The notes under the pieces were generated by a model, which saw only the letters and a list, made by a program, of their open reading frames with translations, searched no databases and had not been told where the DNA came from. DNA of 64,000 nucleotides from Bacteroidetes bacterium RIFCSPLOWO2_12_FULL_35_15 (GTDB lineage Bacteria > Bacteroidota > Bacteroidia > 2-12-FULL-35-15), in assembly GCA_001769385.1 (NCBI GenBank), contig MEPB01000006.1, positions 24,182-88,181 on the forward strand, read 5' to 3'. The translations under genes and the position numbers were made by a program. This document shows positions 8,866 through 31,635 of the stretch, one piece after another (the first letter of the stretch is position 1; each line of letters opens with the position of its first letter).

Positions 8866-8869
8866 GGTT

Positions 8870-10693: not shown

Positions 10694-10779
10694 ATTACGA
10701 ATTTGCGAACACAGCGCAAATAAATAAAGGACAGGTTATGAAAACAAAAAGCATCCCGGTTAGAGATGCTTTTTATTTC

Positions 10780-12297: not shown

Positions 12298-12325
12298 TTT
12301 TTTTTGCGTTTAAGTATTTGATTAT
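12298..12325 (-). promoter_or_regulatory. Conserved upstream motif copy (variant).
   Basis: Plus-strand tttttttttgcgtttaagtatttgatt immediately 5' of the 12297 start codon. Confidence 0.4.
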
Positions 12326-12694
12326 TAATTATTTAACACCATAAAGATACAAAACAACAAAACGTTTTCCAAATTTTTACAAACTTTAATAACCTGATAC
12401 ACAGACGCTTACAACTATTTTAACATGATTTATATCACCTTTTACGCAAATAAATTGCATAACTTTTTGATTTTTAGAGCCTTAAATAATTTTTTCTTTT
12501 CAAAAACACAAAAATATCTCGATAGAGCCCGTCACGCGCTATGGAAGAAATGGAAGTTTCCAAAATTTAAAAACGTTATATGAGCCGTATCTATTGATAG
12601 TAGAGGGGTTTAAAGCCTTTGAACGCCTTATTTGATAGGTGTTACAGGGTTGCACATAAAAAAACAGTCCTTAGGGTAGTGATGCTGTGAAAGT

Positions 12695-14802: not shown

Positions 14803-15059
14803 ACGCTGATACCATGAAGTTTTGTGTTTTCAATTATCTGCAGGGCTGAAATTTGTGCCGGTGACGAACCATTAATTGCCAGCTCAAATACACTTCTTCT
14901 TACCAAAGCTTCTTGCTTTAATCTTCCGCGCTGATAATGAATCTTGAAGTCTTTATTATCAATAGATTTCTCTTCTAATTCAAGGATAATCGCAATTTCT
15001 TTTGGAGAAAAGAAAAGTCCGGCATACTGCTCAACTTGGTTTTGAACTTCTGTATTCAT
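14799..15059 (-). CDS. Hypothetical small protein (possible HTH).
   Basis: 86-aa ORF coupled to the TerS-like gene. Confidence 0.3.
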   Translation of the reverse strand: MNTEVQNQVEQYAGLFFSPKEIAIILELEEKSIDNKDFKIHYQRGRLKQEALVRRSVFELAINGSSPAQISALQIIENTKLHGISV

Positions 15060-15071
15060 GTTTTTAAACTT

Positions 15072-15665
15072 TTAGTAAACTTTTTTACCATTAATTACAT
15101 CCATAATCCATTGCTTGTGAAAATTCATGCTATGCTCATTTCCCATAATGTAACCGCATTCAATGCGCGGATTGTTGCTCATGTTGGCTGAGCTAACAAC
15201 AGAAGCCTTTAACCGCTCACCATCAATTACCATCACCTTTGCATGACACTTGGTAAGCACATAGCCGGTTGCAAACTTTTCAATAAAATCAAAGTGTTTG
15301 GCATCCAGTGTCCGGATCCGATAATCGAAAACAAAATATAAATTGCGGATAGCGCCTGATTGCTTGAGCGCATACAGGATGCGCGCAGGCTCTTCTTTCA
15401 GTGTCCAGGTACTAATATAAACATCTGCTGGTCCCGATTGTTCAAGCAAATAAGTAAGTAACTCGTGCATGCTAAATTCACCTGCAGTACAAAATTCAAC
15501 AAACCGATTGGACAAATTTCGTCCAATTAGTTTTGTCAGCAATTCCGATGCTTTGCAACGTATTTGATAGGACAATTCAAATGAATTATCCGAAGCAGAA
15601 GCTTCCAGCTTCGTAGCTTTTTCAGAAAGTTTTTTATCAATATCACTTATCTCAAACAGCGCCAT
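15072..15665 (-). CDS. Phospholipase D-family (single HKD) nuclease-like protein.
   Basis: HKD motif CHAKVMVIDGERLKASVVSSAN. Confidence 0.55.
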   Translation of the reverse strand: MALFEISDIDKKLSEKATKLEASASDNSFELSYQIRCKASELLTKLIGRNLSNRFVEFCTAGEFSMHELLTYLLEQSGPADVYISTWTLKEEPARILYALKQSGAIRNLYFVFDYRIRTLDAKHFDFIEKFATGYVLTKCHAKVMVIDGERLKASVVSSANMSNNPRIECGYIMGNEHSMNFHKQWIMDVINGKKVY

Positions 15666-16275
15666 TTGTAAGTTTTATTAGTTCCATATCTATTTCCGCT
15701 ATTCTGGTAACGGTATAATTATAATCAGCTACCCGCTTTTTATTTGATTTCAGTTTACTTCTTTGCACGCGAAGCCTTCGTGCTTCATCTTTCAATTGAA
15801 GCGCTTTAAGCGCAACATTTTCAGTGTTGTATTCGGGAATTTCTTTTTTGATTTCAATCGGAAGAAGATCTTTCCCGGTTGTTTTAAATTCGTCCAGGCG
15901 GTTAAAAATATTCCTACGCTGTTCCACAAGCTTCAATACATCCTTCGCAATTTTAAAGCGATCAGAATTTGTTCGTACAATAGCTAATTGTGCATGTAGA
16001 TAACCGATCTTACGAATCAGCTCACCAAGTTTATCAAATTCGGTTTGCAGCTGCAGAGGAAAATCATCACGATTGTATTTTGAAATTTTCCGCTCCGGGA
16101 CCAGGACGGAAATTGCGCGAAGCTCAGAGTCTAATTTTTCTTTTGTGTAAATATTAGCACCTGATTGAAACAAAGCTTTCAGTGTATTGTTTGAACCGTA
16201 TTTCAGGTAAAAATCAACACCCTGCTTGTATTCTCTTCCGGATGCAACCCATTTGGTATAAAAAGAAATTTCCAT
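15652..16275 (-). CDS. Hypothetical protein.
   Basis: 207-aa ORF with a charged C-terminal region. Confidence 0.4.
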   Translation of the reverse strand: MEISFYTKWVASGREYKQGVDFYLKYGSNNTLKALFQSGANIYTKEKLDSELRAISVLVPERKISKYNRDDFPLQLQTEFDKLGELIRKIGYLHAQLAIVRTNSDRFKIAKDVLKLVEQRRNIFNRLDEFKTTGKDLLPIEIKKEIPEYNTENVALKALQLKDEARRLRVQRSKLKSNKKRVADYNYTVTRIAEIDMELIKLTNGAV

Positions 16276-16318
16276 ACCGTAAACTTACAGTATGGAAATT
16301 TCCAATCAGAGGACAACC

Positions 16319-16603
16319 TTAAGCCAACTTAACTAACCATTGTAATTTTGCATCATCACCAATGGCCGAATAACTATATCCGTTATCTTTTAATAATTTA
16401 TACATTTCACTGCTATCCAGCATAGCGGCAAGCGGATAATGTTGTGTAATGCGTTCAATGAAATCAACTGTTGACAAACATAAATCAGCTTCTCTTATAC
16501 TTGCAACAGGAATATACTTTTCCTTTATCGCAAACATGATATCTTCTAATTCGGCTCTGAAATTTATTTCTTCAGGGGATTGTTTTTCTTCGTTTATAGA
16601 CAT
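16319..16603 (-). CDS. Hypothetical protein.
   Basis: 94-aa ORF. Confidence 0.35.
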   Translation of the reverse strand: MSINEEKQSPEEINFRAELEDIMFAIKEKYIPVASIREADLCLSTVDFIERITQHYPLAAMLDSSEMYKLLKDNGYSYSAIGDDAKLQWLVKLA

Positions 16604-16743
16604 GGTTGCGGAAGTATGGTGCCAGGATGTGTCTATAATTAATACCGAAGTAATAAATATCGAAGAGTGTTACCACATCTTCCATCCTGGCATTTTTAAT
16701 TATCAATTTTAAGCGGTAAAATTATAGACAGGACAAAACTAAT

Positions 16744-16777
16744 AAAAAAAGCCACGCATTACTGCATGGCCTTTTTT
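16744..16777 (-). terminator. Rho-independent terminator-like hairpin flanked by an A-run and a T-run (bidirectional).
   Basis: aaaaaaaGCCACGCAttacTGCATGGCCtttttt, immediately after the 16800..16997 gene. Confidence 0.5.
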
Positions 16778-16799
16778 AAAAATAATTTAAAACCCTAAA

Positions 16800-16997
16800 C
16801 TAAACCCTTTTTGTTACAGGGGGTTCAACCCTGCTAATCACTTCCGCTCCGGCTTTAATAAAAGCATCTGCCTGCGCTACGCTGCATGTGCTTAAATCAA
16901 TGCTCACGTTTCCGTGAACATATTTTCCGGGTCCGTAGCCTGGCGACATCTTGAATTTCCCTTCAAGCTTTGTCGATAATTTTAATGGTTCTGCCAT
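16800..16997 (-). CDS. Hypothetical small protein.
   Basis: 65-aa ORF at the end of the head operon, followed by the terminator. Confidence 0.3.
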   Translation of the reverse strand: MAEPLKLSTKLEGKFKMSPGYGPGKYVHGNVSIDLSTCSVAQADAFIKAGAEVISRVEPPVTKRV

Positions 16998-17033
16998 TTT
17001 AAATAGATATTAAATGAATACTTGATTGAATTA

Positions 17034-17573
17034 CTAAACTGCAGGAACCAACGAAACAGTGCTTGTGTAAACATAGTTTACAGGAGCCATGCTGCTGATC
17101 TCAAACTCGTGTCCGCGAACTCCGCCACTGTTTGTACCGGAATTAAATTTCGGCTTGAACTGTGCGTAAAAATCAGCGCTTCCGATTTGAATCATTGTTC
17201 CATCTGCTAAGGGAACAAGAACGAGCATTTGGTCATTTTTTACTAAGCTTGCAAAACCGATCGCTTCTTTTTTCGCTCCCGGATGGAAAATTTTTGCAAG
17301 TTGGCCAAAACTGTGACCATCGCGCTCTCCTTGAACGTTGAATTCAACACTTCCTTTGTCAAGTGTGCAATACAATTGGTTCCAGCATTTGCCGACAACA
17401 AAAGTATGTGCAGTTGCAATTTCGACTTTTGCACCCGGAGTTACCGCTGCAGGATTTGGAACCTGAATGGCCAAAAAATCCCTGATTGGCGCAAAAAATA
17501 TTTTTTGTTTGGTACCACCCATGTTGTCTTCTTGACCATCCGGTGTTCCTAAATCTTCATATGCTATTACCAT
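17034..17573 (-). CDS. Hypothetical phage structural protein (head-associated).
   Basis: 179-aa ORF downstream of the capsid gene. Confidence 0.4.
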   Translation of the reverse strand: MVIAYEDLGTPDGQEDNMGGTKQKIFFAPIRDFLAIQVPNPAAVTPGAKVEIATAHTFVVGKCWNQLYCTLDKGSVEFNVQGERDGHSFGQLAKIFHPGAKKEAIGFASLVKNDQMLVLVPLADGTMIQIGSADFYAQFKPKFNSGTNSGGVRGHEFEISSMAPVNYVYTSTVSLVPAV

Positions 17574-17626
17574 GATTAAAAATTTTTTATGTTTAAATAC
17601 TTTATTGAATTGTCAAAAAAATTTCC

Positions 17627-17914
17627 TTAAATCTCTTTAAGAAAACTGCTGCCGGACTCAACCAACTCAGCCACTAATTTTTTATTGGCAGACAGGTCTT
17701 CGGCTTTTACTTCTTTTTTATTGTGGAAAAAAGATTTCGGAACTACTTCGTATTTCTTTTCGTCATGTTCTACCACATGCTTTAATTTAGCAGAGCTTGA
17801 AAGGCTGCCTAGCTTCTTGCTTAATTCAGCAATTACAGCGTCTTTTTCGTCACACTGTTTTTGTAATTCTTCAACCTCAGTTAATTCAGTTGGAGCGTTT
17901 TTTGTTTTTGCCAT
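17627..17914 (-). CDS. Hypothetical charged/coiled-coil protein.
   Basis: 95 aa, Lys/Glu-rich. Confidence 0.35.
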   Translation of the reverse strand: MAKTKNAPTELTEVEELQKQCDEKDAVIAELSKKLGSLSSSAKLKHVVEHDEKKYEVVPKSFFHNKKEVKAEDLSANKKLVAELVESGSSFLKEI

Positions 17915-17997
17915 TTTTATAAAAATAAAATTGTTTTAATTCCGTGAACTGCAATAAAACTAAGCGAAGCAATATGCTTCGCTTAGAATTTTTTTTC

Positions 17998-19068
17998 TTA
18001 CGCCTGATCGTTAACGTAAAGTGTTTCAAGGTCAGATATTTCGCAACCTTGTCTCCACTTAACAATAGCTTTGTAGCCATGCAAGGTATCAACCACTTTA
18101 CCAATCTTGTTAAAGTCGCCTTCCATGTTGGTACCGAAAGCAAGGTTCTCGCGTTGTGTTACAATAACACGTCCGCTGTCTCCCATCCAGGTGCATTCTT
18201 CAATACCCCATTTTTTACCGCTTCCGTAGATGTACTTTTTACCATCACCCATATCGGATGTAGCAACTGTACCATAAGTAGTACGCTCATGTTCAACATA
18301 CGCGCGGAATACATCAGGTGCAACACGGAATGTACCACCCAAATTACGGTGAGTAACAGTCATTCCATTGTACATCAACTCCAGTTTTGTTAATGCGTTT
18401 GCATTGGTGATTGCACCGGTAGCAATCAGGTTTGCACCTGCAATTCCACCTCCGGTAATTTCATCAGCAATGATGGTTCCCCATCCTGAAGAAATCACAA
18501 CATCATCCGCATCAACCCATTTTGCAGGGTGAGTAGCAGGAGATTCACCAGCAGCAGTGATCACTGCACATTTGTAAACTACTTCTCCATAATTTACATA
18601 ATCACCTACAGCATACGCTAACAAAGCGTCAAACGCAGCAGCATTTCCGTTGTAGTCACTCAAATAAATGTTGTCATTTATTTCCTGAGCAATTTTTTTC
18701 ATTTCCTGTTCCCAGATCCATTGAGAAAACGGAATGTCTTTCGCGTTTGGGTCCAACTGATCTCCTGCAAAAGTTCCGCGGGCCTCTTCCGGGATGATGG
18801 TAATGATTTTCATTCCTTCATACACCAATAATTTTCTGCCTGAAAAATCACGATTAGTTCCTTTCGGAGTTTCCACGTTCAGGTTCAAAGGACGGATTCC
18901 TTTGTTTACAGTCATTTTTGGTAATAACATACCAAATGATGATACGTTACGTAATACACGAACTTGTGGAATGAAATCCATTCCGTTCAATGCTTGTGCA
19001 ATCAATTGCTTGTCGAACTGACCAGCGTATTTTAGGATTGCATCAAATGTTGTTGCTTTTGTTGCCAT
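17998..19068 (-). CDS. Putative major capsid protein.
   Basis: 356 aa, immediately downstream of the prohead protease-scaffold gene; its position and size fit an HK97-like MCP. Confidence 0.5.
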   Translation of the reverse strand: MATKATTFDAILKYAGQFDKQLIAQALNGMDFIPQVRVLRNVSSFGMLLPKMTVNKGIRPLNLNVETPKGTNRDFSGRKLLVYEGMKIITIIPEEARGTFAGDQLDPNAKDIPFSQWIWEQEMKKIAQEINDNIYLSDYNGNAAAFDALLAYAVGDYVNYGEVVYKCAVITAAGESPATHPAKWVDADDVVISSGWGTIIADEITGGGIAGANLIATGAITNANALTKLELMYNGMTVTHRNLGGTFRVAPDVFRAYVEHERTTYGTVATSDMGDGKKYIYGSGKKWGIEECTWMGDSGRVIVTQRENLAFGTNMEGDFNKIGKVVDTLHGYKAIVKWRQGCEISDLETLYVNDQA

Positions 19069-19132
19069 TATTTTTTTAATTAATTGTGAATACTATTTTT
19101 TTACTTTTTTACTGATTGCGTTTAAGGCTATT

Positions 19133-20452
19133 TTATTTGCGTGGACCGTAAAGCTTTTCGCGTGAAGCGCGTACTTCATCATCCACATCACAGGAGAAAT
19201 CGGATTCTTTTTCTTCTGCAGTCGTGGTGTCGGTAACTTTTTTTATAGGAGCTGTTGCACCCGGATGTTTCGCTTTCAAATCAGCTAACTCAGTATCGGC
19301 ACTTGTTTTTGCTGTAGTTAGTGTTTGAATAGAAGTGTTGGCGGTTGCCAATTCTCCTTCAGCTTTTTCAGCGCGTGCAATAGCTGCCGTTAAATCTGTT
19401 TTTGCTTGAGCAAGCGTTGCAAGCTCCGCGTTCATCTGACTTAAATGATCTTCAGTCAAAACCGTTTCATCGGCTTTAAAAGTGGAATCTTTACCAGAAA
19501 AAAAGGCCGTAATTGCAGCCCAACTTAATTTTGATTTCATGTTTGATTGATTTTGGTTTGTATTACTTGATTGATTGAACTCTTGTGAATTGGCAAGCTC
19601 CTGAGCGCGCGCAATAGCTTCATCGAATGTTTTAAATCCATCTATAAGCCCGACACTGATTGCGTCCTGAGCCATAAACATTTTCCCTGATAAAGTTTCT
19701 TTTTGATTTAGTCTATCGCCCCTGTTTGATTTTACAGCTCCTACAAATACATCATTGATAGAATTCAGCGTTGCTTTAAGCGCATCGTATTTACCCTGCC
19801 TGGCTTGTATAAACTCTTGATTTTTTTGAGTACTTGCATCAGCATATATTTCATGAAAAACGACACCTTGCTTTTCATACATCGCTTGGAGATCTGCAAA
19901 ACTTACCATTGTACCAATGCTTCCTATACGGTCCGTTTTGTTGGATGCGTAAATTTCAGTTGATGCAGAAGCAAACCAATAGCCTGCGCTTGCGAGCAAT
20001 CCATCGACAAGAGTAAGTACAGGTTTTTGAGTTTTCGCTGCGAGAACAGCCTCGTGAAGCCCTTCTGTTCCATTTACTGTCCCTCCGGGAGTATCATCTA
20101 CCATCAGGATAGAACCAATATTAGGATTAGCAGCAGCAGACTGAACTAATGAAATATATGTTTGTGTTCCAGGAGCTCCGCAATTATCGTGTTTCATGAT
20201 CGGACCAGAAACATATATTACAGCTGTTGAACGGGAAGAAGAGTTGCTAAATGGTTTTGTGTCTTTTGAAGAAAAAGAAACGGCTCCAACGTTATCTATT
20301 GAAAAGTATTTTGCAACGACATTTTCTTTATCTAATACATTGAAGTTTCCTTTTAGAATACTATCTATTAAAAGAAACTGAGAATCTGCGTATGACTTTT
20401 CAATCAACCAGATACCATTTGTAATTTCTAAAAAAATATTATGTTTTGACAT
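19133..20452 (-). CDS. S49 (SppA/ClpP-fold) prohead protease fused to a coiled-coil scaffold-like C-terminus.
   Basis: SppA-like core (TLVDGLLASAGYWFASAS...IGSIGTM) and a C-terminal Ala/Glu/Leu/Thr-rich heptad region. Confidence 0.7.
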   Translation of the reverse strand: MSKHNIFLEITNGIWLIEKSYADSQFLLIDSILKGNFNVLDKENVVAKYFSIDNVGAVSFSSKDTKPFSNSSSRSTAVIYVSGPIMKHDNCGAPGTQTYISLVQSAAANPNIGSILMVDDTPGGTVNGTEGLHEAVLAAKTQKPVLTLVDGLLASAGYWFASASTEIYASNKTDRIGSIGTMVSFADLQAMYEKQGVVFHEIYADASTQKNQEFIQARQGKYDALKATLNSINDVFVGAVKSNRGDRLNQKETLSGKMFMAQDAISVGLIDGFKTFDEAIARAQELANSQEFNQSSNTNQNQSNMKSKLSWAAITAFFSGKDSTFKADETVLTEDHLSQMNAELATLAQAKTDLTAAIARAEKAEGELATANTSIQTLTTAKTSADTELADLKAKHPGATAPIKKVTDTTTAEEKESDFSCDVDDEVRASREKLYGPRK

Positions 20453-20518
20453 AGCTTCATTATTGAACTATGCCAAAATTCTAACAACCGGAAGGTTTAT
20501 TAAAGGACAGAAAAACGA

Positions 20519-21028
20519 CTATATATCATACACATAAGCCGGATGTGTTCCATCACCGAAGAAGCTGATGTTATAACCTGCAAGCTCCGGAATGTTTGAT
20601 TTTGTATTTAACGAATATTTGAAACGGACAGGCTCTTCAATAGAACCAATTATTTTGCGCAACTTATTGCTATCAGTATAGTCAACAATGAATTTACCAT
20701 TGCGCATTTCATTAAATATTTTTGTTTTTTCAATGGTATCTTTTGGCGAAAATGCTGAAATGTTTCTTTTGTAAACAGTACCACTATTGGTATCTTCAGT
20801 AGGCTCCGCATAACCGATGGTACCTAAAGTTGCATACACTTCGTACCATCTGCAATTTGCTTTTAATGTTATTTCGGTAGTAATAGCGCCATCAATAGCG
20901 TCATCTATACTTTCAACATCATCAGCTTTAGCAATTTTAAAGCGGATTATTCCGCCTAAATTATCATCTTCAAATAGGGTTATATCGTCCATTTTTATTG
21001 AGTTTTTGTACTGTTTTTCGGGACACAT
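20519..21028 (-). CDS. Hypothetical protein.
   Basis: 169-aa ORF. Confidence 0.4.
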   Translation of the reverse strand: MCPEKQYKNSIKMDDITLFEDDNLGGIIRFKIAKADDVESIDDAIDGAITTEITLKANCRWYEVYATLGTIGYAEPTEDTNSGTVYKRNISAFSPKDTIEKTKIFNEMRNGKFIVDYTDSNKLRKIIGSIEEPVRFKYSLNTKSNIPELAGYNISFFGDGTHPAYVYDI

Positions 21029-21042
21029 GTCCCATAAATTAA

Positions 21043-21507
21043 TTATATCAATGATACCAAAGGCTCTAAGCCTTTCTCGTGTCGGTAGTAATCTTTTTTG
21101 ATAGTTTCGTACGGCAGAACGGTCTCATCCATGTTAAATTTGTCGTATGCAAACAGGATCGCTTCTTTCTTTTTTATCTTTTTTATTTCCATCAATGTAT
21201 CGATCATAATTCGCATTTGCATTTTTAAATGACACTCCACAAAACGGTTGAACTCAACAATATTTGTTTTTGTGAGCACACAACCCTTCCTCAGAAAAAC
21301 TTCTTCCACAATTTTAACCGTGATCAGATCCGAGTAATACGCATTGCAATCAGCAATGCGTTTATCCTTTGTAGTTTTCGGATCACCCACAAGTTGGTAA
21401 AAATACTTTCCTATTGCGCTGTCTCTCCTCATCAATGCAGGAGTTCCAAAACAATTTTCAATATGTTTTCTTACGTATGGTTTTGCCGGAATAGATGCTG
21501 TAAACAT
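21043..21507 (-). CDS. Hypothetical protein.
   Basis: 154-aa ORF just downstream of the iteron-like region. Confidence 0.4.
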   Translation of the reverse strand: MFTASIPAKPYVRKHIENCFGTPALMRRDSAIGKYFYQLVGDPKTTKDKRIADCNAYYSDLITVKIVEEVFLRKGCVLTKTNIVEFNRFVECHLKMQMRIMIDTLMEIKKIKKKEAILFAYDKFNMDETVLPYETIKKDYYRHEKGLEPLVSLI

Positions 21508-21539
21508 AAATAGCGAGTTAGGTTAGTATCTGTTTTTTT

Positions 21540-21930
21540 TCTGGACTACTGGACTGAATACATTTATACATAGTAATTTACCAATAAACACTGGACTTTG
21601 CAATAGTCCAGACGATTTTTTTTGAAAAGCACTGTTAAACAGTCCAATTGACGATATTCAATTAAATATATTGATGCTCTAAGTATTCCGATCATAAAAA
21701 AAGTGGACTATTTTCGCTTAGTCCACAATAGGACTAATTAGTACTATTTTAAAAACCACTTAAAAGCACTGCCATTATTGCAGCACATAAACATTCAGTC
21801 CAAAAGTCCACTTTTTTACATCTTTTATAGGTGACTATTAAACAAAGAAATAAGGAATAAAAAAGAATATATATACTGTATGCGCTGATCTAAAAATTTA
21901 CATCAGAAAACATCACAAGTGGACTTATTG
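21540..21930. repeat. Iteron-like cluster of about 11 TGGACT/AGTCCA hexamers (many as GTGGACT/AGTCCAC) in a 610-bp non-coding gap.
   Basis: ctggactactggactg, cactggactt, atagtccagac, acagtccaatt, agtggactat, ttagtccacaatAGGACTaat, ttcagtccaaaagtccactt, agtggacttatt. Confidence 0.6.
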
Positions 21931-22016
21931 CATTGGCGGGCTTCTTTTGACACCCCTGCGCTAAAAACAACCTTTCAGGGGAGAGGGGTAAAGGGGAGAG
22001 GAAGGTAAATTAAAGG

Positions 22017-22049
22017 CATAAAAAAGGCTCAACAATGTACTGTTGAGCC
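22017..22049 (-). terminator. Rho-independent terminator for the 22120..22608 gene.
   Basis: Perfect hairpin GGCTCAACAatgtacTGTTGAGCC, with a T-run on the minus strand (A-run 22017-22025 on plus). Confidence 0.6.
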
Positions 22050-22119
22050 AAATTAATAAGATACATCCCATTGTGTGAGATACGCGCTAAGAAGTTACAT
22101 TACTGTGTTTGATTCAAGT

Positions 22120-22608
22120 TTAAATCTTGTTTCCATTTGTTAGTTTTCCAGTCCCGCCACAACTTTTGCAGGCTCCCGGGTATGGTTCTATGCTTGTTGA
22201 TCTTGTTTGTTCAAAACCTCTGTCTTTTCCATTGCCACGGCAATCCGGACATTGGAAAGGAAGCTCTTCAATGAGCTGCCCCTTATCAAAATTTAATTGC
22301 AACTCGAATATAAGATCCTTTCTTTTTAGCCTGGTACAATATTCATGGGCAATCACTAATTTATCTTCATAGCCGGGCACAACTGTAATTCCTCTGTATT
22401 GTAATCCTTTTTTAATTTCAACAGTTTCAGGTTCTCTGTAAAATTTTCGCAAGTAATCAATGTGCATTCCGATAAAATACTCAGGCGCAAATATTTTCAC
22501 TCTTTCCATGTCGCAGAAATTACGCAAAGTGATGTGCGCTGAATGGTATAGTTTGTGCAAAAGCTGTTCGGTAATGCCTTCTGTATAAATAATACTTCTT
22601 GTTTCCAT
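22120..22608 (-). CDS. Hypothetical protein with a C-terminal CxxC...CxxC zinc ribbon.
   Basis: FQCPDCRGNG...CKSCGGTG. Confidence 0.4.
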   Translation of the reverse strand: METRSIIYTEGITEQLLHKLYHSAHITLRNFCDMERVKIFAPEYFIGMHIDYLRKFYREPETVEIKKGLQYRGITVVPGYEDKLVIAHEYCTRLKRKDLIFELQLNFDKGQLIEELPFQCPDCRGNGKDRGFEQTRSTSIEPYPGACKSCGGTGKLTNGNKI

Positions 22609-22760
22609 ATTTCAAATTTATTAATTATTTACCAATTTCAATACATGTAAAATCAATTTGCTCTACTCCCGGGTGTTCTGCAAACTGCCAGATGCCTACA
22701 ATTTCATAAGTGCCTAGTTTCGAAATATAAATCAGTTTCCCTGATTCCGATATAAACAAG

Positions 22761-23078
22761 TTAGATTCCATCTTTTATTTTTTTATAGATCAACAGCATT
22801 AAATATTCGCTATTAGACCCCGATTTAAACTCAGTTAAAAACTCGCTGGCGGAAACTCCATTTGATGCATAAGTCACAATGCTTCCCAGATCAAAAATAT
22901 GGATCCTGGCCACATCAATTAATTTTGCGTAAAACTTATTATTCGTATCCGGATCACAAATGATCACATCCATTGGTAAATCTTTTTGAGGAATTAAATG
23001 TTCCGGAGCCAAATTGAGGCTGTAAATAATATCTGCCTGCAGCTTATTATTTATGTTTTGTATGTTGATTGTTTTCAT
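22761..23078 (-). CDS. Hypothetical protein.
   Basis: 105-aa ORF overlapping its neighbour by 4 nt. Confidence 0.3.
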   Translation of the reverse strand: MKTINIQNINNKLQADIIYSLNLAPEHLIPQKDLPMDVIICDPDTNNKFYAKLIDVARIHIFDLGSIVTYASNGVSASEFLTEFKSGSNSEYLMLLIYKKIKDGI

Positions 23079-23767
23079 CGCGTAATTTTTTTGAATTCAA
23101 TTACCCATACCCAGGGATTTGCAAACCATGACGCTACTCCATTTGTTTCATACCACAATGATTCAAACGAATCCCTTGCAGTATAGCATTCGCTAACTGA
23201 GTTTTTAAGGTAATTTTTATATGTATTAATAGTTTTTGTATTCCCCCATTTATTTCCATCCCAAACCTGAATATCTTTCAGGTCGTCATCCTGTGGAAAT
23301 AATAATACTCCTTCAGCTTTCGCATCTTCTTCTGTAATATCATGTAATCGTTCAACTCTGATATTAGTGATTTCAAGCCATATACGGGCATATGATTTAG
23401 GCATATGAATAGATGGCTTCCATTTAGACAGTCCGGATGGAACTTCTCTGTTTACATAGTTGGCTTTAAAAAAATGAAACCCTGATGTCAATCCTATTGC
23501 GAAAGTTTCTCGCACCCAAAGCAAATCACCAATTTTGCCGTAAGGGCATTTGATTACATCAGTTACTTCATATCTTTCCACTTCTCCAGGAACTACAAAC
23601 CTTGCAACAAAGTCTCCTTGTTTTTGCCAGTTATTGCTTTTTACAATTTCAGTTGCTTTTATATTTATTTTTTCTAATCCTCTTGTTCTCCTGGTCTTTG
23701 ATTTTGTTTCGTTATCAACAGCAATCACCATTGGTGTGCTGAATAATATTGGAATTTCTTTTTTCAT
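23075..23767 (-). CDS. Hypothetical protein (possibly ASCH-like).
   Basis: 230 aa with a weak ASCH-like N-terminus (PMVIAVDNETKSKTRRTRG). Confidence 0.3.
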   Translation of the reverse strand: MKKEIPILFSTPMVIAVDNETKSKTRRTRGLEKINIKATEIVKSNNWQKQGDFVARFVVPGEVERYEVTDVIKCPYGKIGDLLWVRETFAIGLTSGFHFFKANYVNREVPSGLSKWKPSIHMPKSYARIWLEITNIRVERLHDITEEDAKAEGVLLFPQDDDLKDIQVWDGNKWGNTKTINTYKNYLKNSVSECYTARDSFESLWYETNGVASWFANPWVWVIEFKKITR

Positions 23768-23790
23768 TGCTTTGCGTTTAAGGGTTATTA
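23768..23790 (-). promoter_or_regulatory. Conserved upstream motif (minus-strand sense ...TAATAACCCTTAAACGCAAAGC-aATG).
   Basis: One of at least 9 copies of the motif (TT)GCGTTTAAGG(G)TT found 1-12 nt upstream of minus-strand start codons. Confidence 0.45.
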
Positions 23791-23791
23791 A

Positions 23792-24121
23792 TTAGTTAAC
23801 TTTTTCAAAAATTAATCTCCAGTATTCAGTTCGTTTTACTTTCGAACATTCTATTCCTATGATATTCATTCTTTCTGTTGCGCCATCAGGATGAAGCAAT
23901 AATATTTCTTTTGCTTCACTGATTACTTTTCCGAAAAATTCTTTTATGTCAATCCAGTTTCTATTCCCATCGGAATATTCTACCTCTATCAACTTTTCAT
24001 TTTTATCGTAATCACATGGTGTAATTCCTTTTGGAATTTTCCTTGTAAATCCCGGGTGAGAAAACCTTGAATCCATCGATTCTTTTATTAAATGGTGAAT
24101 GGGTATTTTAATGAAGTCCAT
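23792..24121 (-). CDS. Hypothetical protein.
   Basis: 109-aa ORF preceded by the conserved motif. Confidence 0.35.
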   Translation of the reverse strand: MDFIKIPIHHLIKESMDSRFSHPGFTRKIPKGITPCDYDKNEKLIEVEYSDGNRNWIDIKEFFGKVISEAKEILLLHPDGATERMNIIGIECSKVKRTEYWRLIFEKVN

Positions 24122-24145
24122 TTTGTTTTGCGTTTAAGGGTTTAT
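24122..24145 (-). promoter_or_regulatory. Conserved upstream motif copy.
   Basis: Plus-strand tttgttttgcgtttaagggtttat immediately 5' of the 24121 start codon. Confidence 0.45.
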
Positions 24146-24153
24146 ATTGATTA

Positions 24154-24426
24154 TTATTTATAGTGGTATTTCTTGAATTTCTCATAAAGTACATCAGCAG
24201 CTGCTCTCACTTCATCAATTGTTTTTCCTTTTAATTTTTCCAGCTCATCATAAAGCTTATCGGCTTGTTTTCTGTTTTTAAAGACAATTGGAAATTTAAA
24301 CTCTCCGGATTTCTTTTTTCCAAATCTTAGCACTGGACAGTATAAGTCGATATACGGTTTTTTTATAGTCATCATGGGCTGCAAGTGAACAAATCTTAGT
24401 GCTTCTGTTTGATTTAAATTTTTCAT
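24154..24426 (-). CDS. Hypothetical protein.
   Basis: 90-aa ORF preceded by a motif variant (cgtttaaggttagtatc). Confidence 0.35.
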   Translation of the reverse strand: MKNLNQTEALRFVHLQPMMTIKKPYIDLYCPVLRFGKKKSGEFKFPIVFKNRKQADKLYDELEKLKGKTIDEVRAAADVLYEKFKKYHYK

Positions 24427-24621
24427 TTTTTTTCGTTTAAGGTTAGTATCTCAATTTTCTCTTTTAACTCAATTATTTTTTGAATATATTCAGCTTGCTC
24501 AGCAGCAATTTTCTTATTCAGATTATTGCCAATTGTAATTAACTCAGTTGAGTTTTTATCTGTTATTAATGCTGCTGTTAGAATAGCTGCGTGTATTTCG
24601 TTTTTTGAAGTTTTTCATGGT

Positions 24622-25047
24622 TTATAATTTAGTACGCATTTCAATTTCTATTTTGGCCAGGTTAATTATTTGTCCGATTGAACTGGATATTTCTTTTGCC
24701 TGAGGCACGTATTCTTTATCGGCTTTCACTTTTTCGATATTATCTAATAGAGTATCCCTGAGCTTCGACATTATGCTTAATGGAATAGTTTGTGATTTGA
24801 GAATTACTGCCGTGTTTTTATTTAGTTCAGTAACATCACCGGAGATCGCCACTTCAACTTCAATGTGATTCTGAAATAAAATATTTAAATCAAATAATGT
24901 TGTCATGATCCACTCTGAATCTGTGGCAATATGAATCACGTCATTATCCTGCCTGAAGGATTGAAATAATAATATCTGATCGTTTTTTTTGTTTTTAAAG
25001 TGCTTCCCCATCATGGATTGCAGCTTTTTAATTTTGTCGTTGCTCAT
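24622..25047 (-). CDS. Hypothetical protein.
   Basis: 141-aa ORF. Confidence 0.35.
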   Translation of the reverse strand: MSNDKIKKLQSMMGKHFKNKKNDQILLFQSFRQDNDVIHIATDSEWIMTTLFDLNILFQNHIEVEVAISGDVTELNKNTAVILKSQTIPLSIMSKLRDTLLDNIEKVKADKEYVPQAKEISSSIGQIINLAKIEIEMRTKL

Positions 25048-25852
25048 GTTTTTTAATTTGTCGGTTTAACATTAATTCATTTCTTTTTAGTTCAATTAAT
25101 TCGGGATATTTTAATAATTCTTTTTTCAATTCCGGTTTTTTAAATGCCAGCAATCCGGCTACGTATCTATCACTTAAGGCCATATTTGATGATGCTGCAT
25201 TTAGCATTGCGTTTTCCGCCCTGGTAATTAATGATAAATTTTCAAGTGTAACATTGGTTGTGTCTTCATCTAAAAATCTCAAAACAAATCCTTCAGGTAC
25301 CGGTCCGAAATGTTGTTCAAATAACCATGGTCCATAATGAACAAATCCGGATCCTGTTTTTATTACTTTAAATGGCCTGTTATAATCGCGATCGTACCAG
25401 GTGCGAATATCACCAACTTTCAAAACTCTTCCTTCCCAGCATTTCCAATGACTATCAGCATATCTGCGCATATCAACATTTCGTACTTTAATTTCAGATT
25501 TTTCAATTTCTGTTCGTTTCAGTTGCAGATACCTTCTTTTCTTCTCAACATGTTTTTGCCTCCATCCTTTATTTTTATTGTAGAAAACATTGAATAGTTC
25601 AGCGATTTCCGTGTCACCCAAAACTTTATAAAACTTCTTCAGGAAATAAATCTGATCATCATTCCAGTATTCCAGATCCATTCTTTTCAATCCAAGTTCA
25701 TAAAGTTTTGTCCGGGTTGTAGTAAGTCTTAAATTCAAAGCATTAGCCAACTCGCTATTTGTCATCGATTGATAATTTGCTTTTAAAAAGCAAAGCATAT
25801 CATCTGTCCAGACAGTTTCATTGTACACGTATTTCCCGTTTTTATATGGCAT
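25028..25852 (-). CDS. HNH homing-endonuclease-like protein.
   Basis: C-terminal WLFEQHFGPVPEGFVLRFLDEDTTNVTLENLSLITRAENA is HNH_3-like. Confidence 0.5.
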   Translation of the reverse strand: MPYKNGKYVYNETVWTDDMLCFLKANYQSMTNSELANALNLRLTTTRTKLYELGLKRMDLEYWNDDQIYFLKKFYKVLGDTEIAELFNVFYNKNKGWRQKHVEKKRRYLQLKRTEIEKSEIKVRNVDMRRYADSHWKCWEGRVLKVGDIRTWYDRDYNRPFKVIKTGSGFVHYGPWLFEQHFGPVPEGFVLRFLDEDTTNVTLENLSLITRAENAMLNAASSNMALSDRYVAGLLAFKKPELKKELLKYPELIELKRNELMLNRQIKKHEQRQN

Positions 25853-25853
25853 A

Positions 25854-26159
25854 CTATGTAAATATTAATCGTTTATTTTCTTTGATAATTTTTGATTCAA
25901 AAGGAAATCCATTTTCAGGGACCTGCTGGATCTGATCCATCAAGGCGCCCGAACCGGTAAATACAACATGATATGCTGCACCAATCATAATTTGTAAATG
26001 CAAACACTTTCCATTGCTTTTATCCTTTGCGTATTTTGATTCTACAATCCGGAAAGCGTGCACCATTATTTTATTATTCAGGATGTTATCCATTTCTATT
26101 TTGGTTCCGATAAAAGATTTTGAAGCAGTTTCGATACCGAATTCGCTAAACTTTTTCAT
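25854..26159 (-). CDS. Hypothetical protein.
   Basis: 101-aa ORF directly downstream of the RT. Confidence 0.35.
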   Translation of the reverse strand: MKKFSEFGIETASKSFIGTKIEMDNILNNKIMVHAFRIVESKYAKDKSNGKCLHLQIMIGAAYHVVFTGSGALMDQIQQVPENGFPFESKIIKENKRLIFT

Positions 26160-27105
26160 TTGCTATTTTCTTTTTTAGATTAATACAATTGGCGTGATTT
26201 AACCATCCATTATAGGATGCTAATGATTGCCGGTTTTTGTTTTTGGATATCATCCGGAAACAGTTTTGTTTTATTCGCTTCCTTAATCGAACATGTGTGT
26301 GGTAAAATACATAACCAACAAAATCAACTCCGCGATATTCAACCGGAAATACCTGGTAGTTTTTTTTAACTGTTAATTTTAAATGTTCCTGCATGTATTT
26401 TTTTATATCAGCAAGGATGGCGTGTAAATAGGGTTTATTATCAGAAAGGATCACAATATCATCAGCATACCGGAAATAATACTTCACTGCTTTATCTTCT
26501 TTTATCCAGTGATCGAGATAGGTGAGATAGAAATTTGCAAAATATTGACTTAAATAATTTCCAATTGGTAGTCCCGGTGCGCTATCAATAATTTCATCAA
26601 GCAAAATCAATAAATCAACATCCTTTATTTTTTTTCGAAGCATGTATTTTAAAATATCATGATTCACATTCGGATAAAACTTCGTTACGTCAAGTTTTAA
26701 GCAATATTTTGTTCCCTGCTTATCAACTAATGCTTTTTTGAATGAACGTACGGCTGCATGTATTCCTTTCCCTTTTATACAGCTATATGTATCCGCAGTA
26801 AATGTTGAAACAAAAATCTTTTCCATTACATTCATAATCGCATGATGAACAATTCGATCAGGAAAGTATGGCAAACAAAATATTTCGCGTGGCTTAGGAT
26901 CTGTAATCATAAAAGTTTTATACTCGGATGTTTTATAGGTTTTGTTTTTCAGCGATTCATGAAGCTGTAGTATTTTTTCTTCACGATTCTTATCAAATAG
27001 CTGAACACCGTATTGATGTTTTTTGCCTTTTCTGGCATTTGCATCAGCAGCATATAAATTTTCAATGCTGATGATCTTATCGTATATGTTTCCTGTTCTT
27101 TTCAT
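26146..27105 (-). CDS. Diversity-generating-retroelement-type reverse transcriptase. The likely true start is Met at 27105; the ORF track extends it to 27309 across the TR-like repeat.
   Basis: N-terminal MKRTGNIYDKIISIENLYAADANARKGK, the catalytic FRYADDIVIL, and the DGR-diagnostic LPIGNYLSQYF (I/LGxxxSQ in place of the group II QG motif). About 320 aa and no maturase or endonuclease domain. Confidence 0.75.
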   Translation of the reverse strand: MKRTGNIYDKIISIENLYAADANARKGKKHQYGVQLFDKNREEKILQLHESLKNKTYKTSEYKTFMITDPKPREIFCLPYFPDRIVHHAIMNVMEKIFVSTFTADTYSCIKGKGIHAAVRSFKKALVDKQGTKYCLKLDVTKFYPNVNHDILKYMLRKKIKDVDLLILLDEIIDSAPGLPIGNYLSQYFANFYLTYLDHWIKEDKAVKYYFRYADDIVILSDNKPYLHAILADIKKYMQEHLKLTVKKNYQVFPVEYRGVDFVGYVFYHTHVRLRKRIKQNCFRMISKNKNRQSLASYNGWLNHANCINLKKKIANEKV

Positions 27106-27215
27106 TCCTTTGCTTTCACGGTCGTTTTCGTTTTCACTACCAACGCCCAATCTTTTAAACTTTATTTTTTGCCCTGTTGGCAAGGTTTGCATTGTTATTA
27201 AATTATTCCCAGCAT

Positions 27216-27284
27216 AGGTGGGAGCCGCAATCCGTACCCGTGTGCCAACCATCGTAATTCGAGTACGAGAAGCCGAAGCCCGAC
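27216..27284 (-). repeat. Copy A of a 69-bp repeat, the DGR template-repeat (TR) candidate. It lies in a non-coding context 5' of the RT.
   Basis: aggtgggagccgcaatccgtacccgtgtgccaaccatcgtaattcgagtacgagaagccgaagcccga. Its flanks are unique and its 3' (sense) end differs from copies B and C. Confidence 0.55.
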
Positions 27285-27321
27285 ACATCAAACAGCTCAT
27301 CCAATGCACAACCCAATTTCA

Positions 27322-27696
27322 TTACATTAAATAATAATCAATGTATAGTTGTTTAAATTGCTCTACCGCATATAAGCATAAATCACTTGATTTAAAGCAA
27401 AGGCGGGAGCCGCAATACGTAAGCGTGCTCCAACCAGCGTAAGCCGAGTCCGAGACGCCGAAGCCCGATGGCTTTTCGTTAGAGGCATCTACTTCAAACC
27501 ATGGGAAGTATTTCCATTCATTTTTATTATTCCAGTTTGGTTCCCATCCTTCATTCAATGCCTGAGTGATGATGATAAGTTTATAATGGGATAACAAAGC
27601 TTTCTGATGCTTTTCAGGAAGCGCACTTACATCAGGTAATGTTTCAGAAGTGTTTAATGCTTTGCACGCATCTTCAAATGTTTTGATTTTGTTCAT
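27322..27696 (-). CDS. DGR variable target protein 2 (small; C-terminal variable region).
   Basis: Paralogue of 27704..28189 (IKTFEDAC, NEGWEPNWNN..EWKYFPWFE). Its C-terminal ...PSGFGVSDSAYAGWSTLTYCGSRLCF is encoded by repeat copy B. Confidence 0.6.
   Translation of the reverse strand: MNKIKTFEDACKALNTSETLPDVSALPEKHQKALLSHYKLIIITQALNEGWEPNWNNKNEWKYFPWFEVDASNEKPSGFGVSDSAYAGWSTLTYCGSRLCFKSSDLCLYAVEQFKQLYIDYYLM
27401..27469 (-). repeat. Repeat copy B, the variable-repeat (VR) candidate at the 3' end of target 2.
   Basis: aggcgggagccgcaatacgtaagcgtgctccaaccagcgtaagccgagtccgagacgccgaagcccga. Confidence 0.6.
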
Positions 27697-27703
27697 TTGT
27701 TTA

Positions 27704-28189
27704 TTATTTGATTGTTAAAAATTGATTGTATAAGTCGATGAATTGTGTCCCGGCATAAATGGCTAACTCTTTATTTTTAAAGCAAAGGCGGGAGCCGCAA
27801 GTCGAATGCGTGAACCAAATACCGTAATCCGAGTACGAGAAGCCGAAGCCCGACTTGTTTGCTTCAAACCAAGGGTAATATTTATATTCACTGGAGTTGT
27901 TCCAATCCGGCTTCCACCCTTCGTTCAATGATCTATTGATGATTGAAATTTTCAGAAATGCTTGCGCAGCCAATAATTCTTCATCAACTCCACTATAATT
28001 CAATAATATTGACTGGCTTTCTGTAGTTCCAACTTCATCACATGCATCTTCAAATGTTTTTATTCGATCCATAATGTTTTGTGAAAGGATCTCTTTGCCG
28101 ATTAAATTTTCAAGCAAAGATTTTCCGCTTTTGTCAGCGGATCTGTATGCTTTTAAGGCATTTGATTTTTTAATGTTGATTGTTCCCAT
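27704..28189 (-). CDS. DGR variable target protein 1 (small; C-terminal variable region).
   Basis: Its C-terminal ...KSGFGFSYSDYGIWFTHSTCGSRLCF is encoded by repeat copy C. Confidence 0.6.
   Translation of the reverse strand: MGTINIKKSNALKAYRSADKSGKSLLENLIGKEILSQNIMDRIKTFEDACDEVGTTESQSILLNYSGVDEELLAAQAFLKISIINRSLNEGWKPDWNNSSEYKYYPWFEANKSGFGFSYSDYGIWFTHSTCGSRLCFKNKELAIYAGTQFIDLYNQFLTIK
27786..27854 (-). repeat. Repeat copy C, the VR candidate at the 3' end of target 1.
   Basis: aggcgggagccgcaagtcgaatgcgtgaaccaaataccgtaatccgagtacgagaagccgaagcccga. Confidence 0.6.
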
Positions 28190-28256
28190 TTTGGTTTTTT
28201 GTTTAAGGTTTATATTTATTTAATATTCATTTTTGAAAATTTGCTTTTCATAAAAC

Positions 28257-31307: not shown

Positions 31308-31320
31308 AAATAATTTATAA

Positions 31321-31632: not shown

Positions 31633-31635
31633 GGT

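What the first reader, a model, noticed from the sequence alone, without database searches (positions are those of the whole stretch)
21540..21930. Iteron-like array of GTGGACT/AGTCCAC hexamers in a 610-bp gene-free gap
At least 11 copies of TGGACT or its complement lie in both orientations within about 390 bp, between two minus-strand genes. The stretch is AT-rich and is followed by a G-rich tract (ggggagaggggtaaaggggagaggaagg) and a terminator hairpin. This organisation is typical of a phage or plasmid replication origin, or of a partition (parS-like) centromere.
Basis: seen in the sequence. Interest (0 to 1): 0.5.

Follow-up and report, generated by a model that had tools for sequence, protein, structure and literature searches.

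The report
Conserved hexamer array, probable phage origin
A 612-bp non-coding gap inside a Bacteroidota prophage holds about a dozen copies of one hexamer at fixed positions; related phages keep the same layout with their own hexamer, so it is a docking site for a phage protein, most likely the replication origin bound by the phage's primase-helicase.

Summary
There are 10 exact TGGACT/AGTCCA copies in 21542..21925, against about 0.12 expected, plus one near copy and three related hexamers. They lie in a 612-bp gap between two minus-strand genes of an integrated prophage.

The array sits between the terminator that ends the early/accessory genes and the first gene of the structural block. The same gap occurs in at least 12 related phage genomes, including the cultured Polaribacter phage Leef_1. 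Each has 9-13 sites at conserved offsets and orientations, ending in inverted pairs spaced 8 bp apart. The hexamer differs by lineage (AGTCCA, AGTGCA, AGCACT, GCACGA, AGTTCGA, G/ATTACA).

This points to double-stranded DNA sites for a phage-encoded protein. It is not chance, an attP site, or an RNA.

In one mosaic genome the motif follows the upstream (replication) module, not the downstream gene. Every genome where the replication gene is visible encodes a primase–SF3 helicase fusion. The window's copy has a C-terminal winged-helix domain, and the P4 origin-binding domain is among its top fold matches.

Best reading: a SaPI/P4-style origin (about 0.45). Main rival: a control region for the late operon (about 0.3). 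Partition and packaging are unlikely. The binding protein was not identified directly.

The parts
21508..22119 (-). Non-coding gap at the junction between the early/accessory genes and the structural (late) genes of the prophage
   Evidence: ORF list. Homologous gaps in L001, L002, L005, L006, L007, L030, L031, L009, L026, L027 and Leef_1.
21542..21555 (-). Proximal tandem pair AGTCCAgtAGTCCA on the gene strand (8-bp period), 40-48 nt before the ATG of gene 21043..21507
   Evidence: The same pair sits at the same offset in L002, L007, L006, L005, L030 and L031 with their own hexamers.
21573..21591 (-). Block GTGTTTATTGGTAAATTAC (consensus TTGATTTTATTGGTAAATT), conserved in clade A whatever the lineage hexamer. 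Possibly a promoter or a second factor's site
   Evidence: Alignment A3; L030 and L031.
21592..21610 (.). Inverted pair TGGACT-N7-AGTCCA (offsets -103 and -90)
21628..21646 (.). Pair AGCACT-N7-AGTCCA (offsets -126 and -139). The AGCACT/AGTGCT member is kept in several lineages
21647..21703 (.). Central spacer of about 57 bp without sites, AT-rich in the window (50-bp dG -55.2 against a mean of -62.5)
   Evidence: The site-free gap between offsets -202 and -140 is kept in L002, L007 and L006.
21704..21745 (.). Inner cluster: GTGGACT-N10-AGTCCAC, then AGGACT (near copy, 21730..21735), then AGTACT (21740..21745)
   Evidence: The aligned positions carry the lineage hexamer in L001, L002, L005, L006 and L007.
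21765..21787 (.). AGCACT (21765..21770) and AGCACA (21782..21787), related hexamers
21797..21810 (+). Distal tandem pair AGTCCAaaAGTCCA on the + strand (8-bp period), inverted relative to the proximal pair and about 255 bp from it
   Evidence: Equivalent terminal pairs occur in L002, L007, Leef_1, L009, L026 and L027.
21826..21880 (.). Conserved AT-rich block (TATACTGTATATATATTCTTTTTTATT...). It holds the least stable 50-bp stretch of the gap and is the candidate unwinding element
   Evidence: dG -50.3, about 2.9 SD above the prophage mean; tenth of the ranked distinct least-stable sites in 1..34000. The sequence is conserved across clade A.
21920..21925 (+). Isolated outlying site (offset -418). 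A site is present near this offset in 5 of 6 close relatives
21978..22005 (+). G-rich tract (CCCCTTTACCCC on the gene strand), conserved next to the terminator in clades A and B
22016..22049 (-). Intrinsic terminator that ends the early/accessory transcription unit
   Evidence: 10-bp stem, then a T-run. A terminator sits at the same place in every relative.
28257..31307 (-). Candidate cognate protein: DnaG-type Zn-ribbon/TOPRIM primase fused to a P-loop SF3 (DUF5906-type) helicase. The C-terminal winged-helix domain is encoded by 28260..28664
21043..21507 (-). First gene after the array ('X', 154 aa, no known family). It is the positional marker of the array in all relatives and is probably not the binding protein

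Best explanation
The array is the phage's origin of replication. It is a set of about 12 short double-stranded DNA sites recognised by the C-terminal winged-helix domain of the phage's own primase–SF3 helicase (28257..31307).

The sites form two oppositely oriented sets, each ending in a tandem pair with an 8-bp period. This would let two helicase hexamers load facing opposite ways, next to the easily melted AT-rich block (21826..21880). SaPI Rep/PriRep and phage P4 alpha work this way.

Shown here: the sites are non-random, their positions are conserved, and the hexamer is lineage-specific, so they are protein-binding sites. The motif belongs to the upstream genome module. A primase–SF3 helicase with a winged-helix tail is encoded in that module.

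Inferred, not shown: that this protein binds these sites, and that replication starts here.
For: 1. Non-random array: 10 exact copies against 0.12 expected.

2. Conserved architecture. Close relatives have sites at the same offsets and orientations, each with its own hexamer. The window has -303<, -295<, -228>, -218<, -202>, -139<, -126>, -103<, -90>, -48>, -40>. L007 (AGTGCA) has the same positions, and so does L002 (AGTGCT). L030 uses GCACGA and L031 uses AGTTCGA.

3. Clade B arrays have 12-13 sites. These are Leef_1, L026, L027 and L009. They show the orientation string <<><><>>(>)<>>. Leef_1, L026 and L027 share the conserved spacings; L009 keeps the terminal pairs but differs inside.

4. 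The cluster is unique where this was checked: the window, the complete Leef_1 genome and two 16-kb loci.

5. Sites occur in both orientations. At one aligned position, direct and inverted arrangements interchange between lineages. That fits double-stranded DNA recognition, not RNA pairing.

6. Mosaic genome L024/L009. Its primase-helicase is clade B (42-49% identity to Leef_1, L026 and L027; 19-35% to the window clade) and its motif is the clade-B GGTTACA. Its X protein is nearer the window clade (31-32%) than clade B (17-22%). The primase-helicase is the only early-region protein shared by all four TTACA genomes.

7. Leef_1, L026 and L027 keep the motif and the spacings with primase-helicases 71-82% identical, although their X proteins are only 24-32% identical.

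8. Every array-bearing genome where the replication gene is visible encodes a primase fused to a DUF5906/P-loop SF3 helicase.

10. SaPI origins, per PMC9371898, have 6-12 penta- or hexanucleotide iterons. Half lie on each side of an AT-rich region, with at least two on each side pointing in opposite directions. They are bound by the C-terminal winged helix of an SF3 Rep, which is fused to a primase in SaPI5.

11. No other iteron-like non-coding region exists in the 33 kb of prophage in the window.
Against: 1. The array lies 5-8 kb from the primase-helicase gene, beyond a block of variable accessory genes. It is always at the start of the structural operon. In SaPIs the ori lies immediately 3' of rep.

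2. The linkage evidence rests on one mosaic genome. A late-gene activator encoded in the same early module would give the same pattern.

3. GTTACA-type motifs occur with two primase-helicase types, clades B and C, whose C-terminal parts show no BLAST or HMM similarity.

4. Within clade A, the hexamer does not track C-terminal-domain identity any better than it tracks X identity.

6. The central spacer is AT-rich in the window but not clearly so in relatives.

7. GC skew gives no origin signal because it follows transcription.
Confidence: 0.45

Rival explanations
1. The array is the control region of the late (structural) operon. The sites would be operators or upstream activating sites for a phage regulator encoded in the early region. 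That regulator would switch on, or keep silent, the single promoter that drives genes from 21507 downstream.
For: A conserved strong terminator ends upstream transcription just before the array in every lineage, so the structural genes need their own promoter or antitermination here.

The array always precedes the first gene of the structural block, even when replication modules differ or 1-3 small genes are inserted between them.

The proximal tandem pair lies 40-48 nt before the ATG, just after a conserved promoter-like block.

A regulator acting on a single late promoter would also give one cluster per genome and linkage to the early module.
Against: Known phage late-promoter regulators (lambda Q, P2 Ogr, Mu C; from my own knowledge) use one to a few sites, not 12-13 spread over about 260 bp in two inverted sets.

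No canonical Bacteroidota -33 TTTG / -7 TAnnTTTG promoter was visible in the conserved block. I checked this by eye only.

No candidate regulator is shared by genomes with the same motif. The LuxR-like Leef1_22 is absent from L024 and from the window.

The motif is absent from the lysogeny-switch region, so the prophage repressor is not the binder.
Confidence: 0.3
2. The array is a packaging recognition site, like cosB or pac. The hexamers would be bound by the small terminase subunit to position the terminase.
For: Lambda-type cos sites lie at the start of the morphogenetic genes and carry several terminase-binding repeats with lineage-specific sequence (own knowledge). Leef_1 is predicted to have 3' cohesive ends (PMC8776804).
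Against: The TerS-like and TerL genes are 7 kb downstream (14200..14802 and 12695..14200).

The Leef_1 record starts 83 bp after TerL, next to a GC-rich segment in a 30% GC genome. An independent 42-kb IMG/VR contig also ends about 180 bp after TerL. This suggests cos lies there.

The motif follows the early module, not the structural/terminase module, in the L024 mosaic.
Confidence: 0.07
3. The hexamers act at the RNA level. Inverted hexamer pairs would form hairpins that serve as tandem terminators, attenuators or a structured leader in the transcript entering the late operon.
For: The scan found 6 terminator-like hairpins in 21300..22300 against 0.6 expected. Three are formed by hexamer pairs; one of these three is the pair at 21591..21611 read on the opposite strand. 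The pair at 21726..21703 is followed by T7. At one aligned position AGTCC/GGACT, AGTGC/GCACT and AGTAC/GTACT keep complementarity.
Against: At the same aligned positions L001 and L006 have direct repeats, which cannot pair. The tandem 8-bp pairs cannot form hairpins. All helices in a genome use the same sequence, which RNA structure does not require but a single binding protein does. There was no Rfam match above threshold.
Confidence: 0.05
4. The array is a partition centromere (parS/parC-like) for an extrachromosomal prophage.
For: Short repeats in both orientations with an 8-bp period recall ParG, ParR and omega-type centromeres (own knowledge).
Against: The element is integrated: host genes begin at 34382. 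Relatives carry an integrase plus repressor module. None of the roughly 35 phage ORFs scanned had a Pfam, PHROG or NCBIfam match to ParA or ParB. The downstream genes X and Y do not look like a partition pair.
Confidence: 0.03

Closest known systems
SaPI (staphylococcal pathogenicity island) origins bound by Rep/PriRep self-loading SF3 helicases
   Same: SaPI origins have six to twelve penta- or hexanucleotide iterons. They form two sets on either side of an AT-rich region, with at least two on each side pointing in opposite directions. The sequence is element-specific. They are recognised by a C-terminal winged-helix domain of an SF3 helicase, which is fused to a primase in SaPI5 (PMC9371898).

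Here there are about 12 hexamers, inverted terminal pairs, lineage-specific sequence, and a primase–SF3 helicase with a winged-helix tail.
   Different: The SaPI ori lies immediately downstream of rep. Here the array is 5-8 kb away, at the early/late junction. There is no detectable sequence similarity between the proteins. The most AT-rich block lies beside the array rather than at its centre. Binding was not tested.
Phage P4 ori/crr bound by the alpha protein (primase-helicase with a C-terminal origin-binding domain, PDB 1KA8)
   Different: P4 uses octamers in two separate regions, ori and crr. Here there is one cluster per genome. Identity to 1KA8 is 4% over 67 aligned residues, so the similarity is at fold level only.
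Polyomavirus/papillomavirus core origins (large T antigen GAGGC pentamers, E1 sites)
   Same: Short 5-6 bp sites in inverted arrangement direct head-to-head loading of two SF3 helicase hexamers next to an AT-rich tract (own knowledge).
   Different: Those are eukaryotic viruses with four core sites rather than about 12, and the origin-binding-domain fold is different.
Arrays for ribbon-helix-helix proteins with short periods (MetJ met-boxes, ParG/parH, omega heptads)
   Same: Tandem sites with a 7-8 bp period in direct or inverted orientation (own knowledge).
   Different: No ribbon-helix-helix protein was identified. Only the terminal pairs have the 8-bp period; the other spacings are 10-63 bp.

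Membership tests
Iteron-type origin of an SF3 self-loading initiator-helicase (SaPI/P4 kind) | Multiple copies of a short (5-8 bp) element-specific repeat clustered in a non-coding region | tested here: met
   10 exact plus 4 related hexamers in about 390 bp. Each of at least 12 related genomes has its own motif.
Iteron-type origin of an SF3 self-loading initiator-helicase (SaPI/P4 kind) | Repeats in two sets of opposite orientation flanking or adjoining an AT-rich, easily melted region | tested here: inconclusive
   Terminal 8-bp pairs are inverted relative to each other in clades A and B. The least stable segment (21826..21880) adjoins the array rather than lying at its centre. The central spacer is AT-rich only in the window.
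Iteron-type origin of an SF3 self-loading initiator-helicase (SaPI/P4 kind) | The element encodes an SF3 helicase initiator with a sequence-specific DNA-binding (winged-helix) domain | tested here: met
Iteron-type origin of an SF3 self-loading initiator-helicase (SaPI/P4 kind) | Repeat sequence co-varies with the initiator's DNA-binding domain | tested here: inconclusive
   Supported by the L024 mosaic and by the clade A versus clade B split. No finer correlation within clade A. Clades B and C share GTTACA despite dissimilar C-terminal parts.
Iteron-type origin of an SF3 self-loading initiator-helicase (SaPI/P4 kind) | Origin adjacent to the initiator gene | tested here: not met
   The array is 6.1 kb from the 3' end of the primase-helicase gene in the window and 5-8 kb away in relatives.
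Iteron-type origin of an SF3 self-loading initiator-helicase (SaPI/P4 kind) | The fragment supports initiator-dependent replication, and the initiator binds the repeats | not testable with these tools
   Needs EMSA or footprinting and a replication assay.
Partition centromere (parS/parC) | Cognate ParA-type NTPase and centromere-binding protein encoded nearby, on an extrachromosomal replicon | tested here: not met
   None of the roughly 35 phage ORFs scanned had a match to ParA or ParB. The element is integrated next to host genes, and relatives have integrases.
attP with integrase arm-type sites | The site is split into attL and attR in the integrated prophage and lies next to the integrase | tested here: not met
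   The array is intact in the middle of the integrated prophage. In relatives the integrase/repressor module lies between the tail genes and the early genes.
cos/pac terminase recognition site | Adjacent to the genome end or the terminase genes, with repeats that follow terminase specificity | tested here: not met
   TerS-like and TerL genes are 7 kb away. The likely cos lies after TerL. The motif follows the early module.

The most novel reading that the evidence does not exclude
The array is one nucleoprotein switch at the early/late junction that does both jobs. Assembly of the primase-helicase on about 12 sites would start replication and also open or activate the only late promoter. Late gene expression would then be physically coupled to the onset of replication in a whole family of Bacteroidota siphophages (Helgolandviridae-like). 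This would explain why the origin sits 5-8 kb from its initiator gene and always directly before the structural operon.
Probability: 0.12. Interest if true: 0.75.

Novelty: new variant of a known kind. Interest (0 to 1): 0.55.

Why it matters
Nothing is known experimentally about replication origins or late-gene control in temperate Bacteroidota siphophages. The core proteins of their cultured representative family (Helgolandviridae) are all annotated 'hypothetical' (PMC8776804).

This array is an easily recognised landmark that is conserved across the family. It marks the early/late boundary. It gives a defined DNA fragment and a defined candidate protein to test in a cultured system: Leef_1 and Polaribacter.

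Its natural variants offer a way to study how an initiator or regulator changes DNA specificity. About a dozen lineages share the same layout but use different hexamers.

If it is an origin, it could also seed shuttle vectors for Flavobacteriia, which are hard to manipulate genetically.

Tried and rejected
1. Chance: rejected.

2. GC skew as an origin test: uninformative. Skew follows gene strand in the window and in the complete Leef_1 genome.

3. tRNA or known RNA families: none found in the gap. Weak sub-threshold hits only.

4. X (154 aa, first gene after the array) as the binder.
- A profile search against PDB sequences found nothing.
- Its N-terminal strand and variable loop do not co-vary with the motif.
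- X is 24-32% identical among genomes that share motif and spacing, yet 45-65% identical among genomes with different motifs.

5. Y (169 aa): acidic and beta-rich, so an unlikely DNA binder.

6. Zn-ribbon protein 22120..22608: only a sub-threshold match to the DnaJ-type CXXCXGXG domain, and no relative was found in the viral collection, so it is absent from L001, which keeps the array.

7. Genes just upstream of the gap: the 230-aa protein (phrog_874, no assigned function) looks ASCH-like by eye from its sequence; the 105-aa protein has no family match and I did not classify it. Neither is shared by L005 and L008, which have the same motif.

8. LuxR-like Leef1_22: absent from L024 and from the window.

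9. Prophage repressor: the motif is absent from the switch region.

10. A homolog search with the primase C-terminal fragment alone returned nothing. It had to be repeated with the full protein.

11. The conserved 35-nt element before the terminator showed no covariation.

12. L029 and L025 did not reach an array within the fetched DNA.

13. The 8 kb upstream of the L013 array holds five DNA methyltransferase genes, and the three L017 ORFs scanned are not replication genes, so those loci could not test the primase link.

Full report
**Observation**

The gap 21508..22119 (612 bp) lies between minus-strand ORFs 22120..22608 and 21043..21507. TGGACT or its complement occurs 10 times in 21542..21925, five on each strand. 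The remaining 63.6 kb hold 20 copies. The expected number in 384 bp is 0.12. None of 2000 dinucleotide shuffles of the gap gave any non-A/T hexamer ten times, and no other 400-bp stretch of the window reaches this count.

GTGGACT applies to four copies only. The G-rich tract (21978..22005) and the terminator (stem-loop 22026..22049 plus a T-run) are real. The terminator is on the minus strand, so it ends the upstream gene.

**Context**

The window comes from the MAG 'Bacteroidetes bacterium RIFCSPLOWO2_12_FULL_35_15'.

- Positions 1 to about 33.8 kb are a prophage with all genes on the minus strand.
- From 34382 onward the genes are host genes: a T9SS-sorted protein, asparaginase, oxoprolinase, acyl-CoA metabolism genes and a Flavo-1 RNA.

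Read on the gene strand, the prophage runs in this order:

- Small early genes.
- A 1016-aa primase-helicase (28257..31307).
- A block of accessory genes: a reverse transcriptase, an HNH protein, two proteins without a family name, and a Zn-ribbon protein.
- The terminator, then the gap.
- X (154 aa), Y (169 aa), an S49 head-maturation protease, the major capsid protein, a TerS-like protein, TerL, the portal and the tail genes.

The gap is therefore the junction between the early/accessory genes and the structural genes. GC skew follows gene orientation and shows nothing at the gap.

**Related genomes**

Homologs of X led to the same gap in IMG/VR, Logan, JGI and GTDB contigs. A Foldseek match (E 3e-6) and a phmmer match (7.8e-10, from the L005 homolog of X) led to gene 39 of the cultured Polaribacter phage Leef_1 (Helgolandviridae).

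In gene-strand order every gap has:

- a terminator;
- a C-rich tract (CCCCTTTACCCC);
- an AT-rich block;
- an array of a short motif;
- the first structural gene.

The motif differs by genome:

| Genome | Motif |
|---|---|
| window | AGTCCA |
| L007 | AGTGCA |
| L001, L002, L005 | AGCACT/AGTGCT |
| L006 | AGTTCA |
| L030 | GCACGA |
| L031 | AGTTCGA |
| L009, L026 | GGTTACA |
| Leef_1, L027 | GATTACA/ATTACA |
| L010, L012 | T/GGTTACA |
| L013 | TGTTGGA |
| L017 | GTACGA |

**Architecture**

Site positions relative to the ATG of X are conserved while the hexamer changes. Here '>' means the AGTNCW form is on the gene strand and '<' means its complement is.

- The window has sites at -303<, -295<, -228>, -218<, -202>, -139<, -126>, -103<, -90>, -48> and -40>.
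- L007 has -302<, -294<, -229>, -219<, -203>, -141<, -128>, -50> and -42>. L002 matches as well.

The array begins and ends with tandem pairs spaced 8 bp apart. The two pairs are inverted relative to each other and lie about 255 bp apart.

Clade B genomes have 12-13 sites with the orientation string <<><><>>(>)<>>. Leef_1, L026 and L027 share the spacings 8, 55, 21, 18, 12 ... 8. L009 keeps the terminal pairs but its inner layout differs.

The cluster is unique in the window, in the complete Leef_1 genome and in two 16-kb loci.

At one aligned position some lineages have inverted copies and others have direct copies. All sites within a genome change together. This is what a single double-stranded-DNA-binding protein with lineage-specific specificity predicts. 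RNA helices do not predict it.

**Which protein binds**

X is always next to the array but does not co-vary with the motif. Genomes that share motif and spacing (Leef_1, L026, L027) have X proteins only 24-32% identical. Clade A genomes with different hexamers have X proteins 45-65% identical. X has no informative fold match.

The genes just upstream of the gap differ between lineages.

The informative case is the contig behind L009 and L024:

- Its primase-helicase is clade B: 42-49% identity to Leef_1, L026 and L027, and 19-35% to the window clade.
- Its motif is the clade-B GGTTACA.
- Its X protein is closer to the window clade.
- The primase-helicase is the only early-region protein shared by all four TTACA genomes.

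So the array belongs genetically to the upstream module.

**Comparison with known origins**

SaPI origins are described as 6-12 penta- or hexanucleotide iterons. Half lie on each side of an AT-rich region, with at least two on each side pointing in opposite directions. They are bound by the C-terminal winged helix of an SF3 Rep, which is fused to a primase in SaPI5. The Rep is thought to self-load as two hexamers (PMC9371898).

The present array matches this description in number of sites, length, orientation logic, lineage specificity and type of candidate initiator.

The window's least stable DNA in the gap is the conserved AT-rich block 21826..21880, which adjoins the distal pair.

**What does not fit**

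- The array is 5-8 kb from the initiator gene and always directly before the structural operon, behind a strong terminator.
- A late-gene regulator encoded in the early module would give the same linkage pattern, a single cluster per genome and the same position.
- Clades B and C share GTTACA although their C-terminal regions are not detectably similar.
- Within clade A, no residue-level co-variation could be shown.
- In clade A a second site type, AGCACT/AGTGCT, persists at fixed positions whatever the lineage hexamer. This hints at relaxed specificity or at a second factor.

**Other readings**

- attP is excluded. The array is intact inside an integrated prophage, and relatives place the integrase and repressor between the tail genes and the early genes.
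- Packaging is unlikely. The terminase genes are 7 kb away. The Leef_1 record, with predicted 3' cos ends, and an independent 42-kb contig both end just after TerL.
- Partition is unlikely. The element is integrated, and none of the roughly 35 phage ORFs scanned had a match to ParA or ParB.
- The prophage repressor is not the binder, because the motif is absent from the switch region.

**Verdict**

This is a real, family-conserved array of protein-binding sites. The best explanation is a SaPI/P4-style origin for the phage's primase–SF3 helicase (about 0.45). The main rival is a late-operon control region (about 0.3). A combined role is possible.

A literature search on the phage family found only taxonomic and genomic papers and no description of this element.

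Noticed in passing
window 22058..22094 (minus strand): A non-coding element of about 35 nt (TTAAGCGCACATCTCA-N5-TGGGATGTATC) is more conserved than the flanking genes. It lies between the stop codon of non-homologous upstream genes and the terminator in the window, L001, L002, L005, L006 and L031, and occurs twice in L007. It contains a small TCTCA/TGGGA hairpin with no covariation. It might be an antitermination or RNA 3'-end element.
   Followed up: partly
window 21978..22005: The G-rich tract (CCCCTTTACCCC on the gene strand) sits right after the terminator. It is conserved in clades A and B, is duplicated in L030, and is inverted in L012. Its function is unknown; a Rho-utilisation site or a primer/R-loop element are guesses.
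   Followed up: partly
window 26146..27309 (minus strand): The prophage encodes a reverse transcriptase (RVT_1). Its nearest NCBIfam models are the group II intron RT and the antiviral Drt3a, both far below their cut-offs. A homolog is in L009 (65% identical); L029 and L031 also carry RVT_1 genes. I did not look for TR/VR repeats (as in diversity-generating retroelements) or a retron ncRNA.
   Followed up: no
window 32374..33020 (minus strand): The phage early region encodes an acyl-carrier-protein-like protein (PP-binding, 96 aa) next to a nucleoside 2-deoxyribosyltransferase-like protein. This may point to DNA or nucleotide modification.
   Followed up: no
window 49408..49546 and 48479..48555: A 46-bp unit is repeated three times (96% identity, rich in TTCGTAATTAGTA) just upstream of the acyl-CoA dehydrogenase gene. 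A Flavo-1 RNA lies 0.9 kb before it. TCGTAA/TACGAA hexamers are enriched over 48.1-52.1 kb of host DNA.
   Followed up: no
L022 (Leef_1) 28136..28999; L030 17737..18573: A Xer-like tyrosine recombinase (SAM-like N-terminal domain plus catalytic domain, about 280 aa) is encoded 0-2 genes upstream of the array in two lineages. It is separate from the lysogeny integrase and is absent from the window.
   Followed up: partly
L013 836..5957: Five DNA methyltransferase genes (four N6/N4 type, one C5 type) lie in a row in the accessory block before the array. Other lineages carry glycosyltransferases, a PAPS reductase or an IS1595 transposase in the same block.
   Followed up: no
window 34147..34184: Three copies of A(A/G)TGCGCCA lie within 38 bp near the presumed prophage/host junction. 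This could be an att-related or regulatory repeat.
   Followed up: no
window 12298..12694 (minus strand): A gap of about 400 bp follows TerL and contains a GC-rich segment (AGCGCGTGACGGGCTC). It matches the place where the Leef_1 record and one IMG/VR contig end, so it is the probable cos site.
   Followed up: partly
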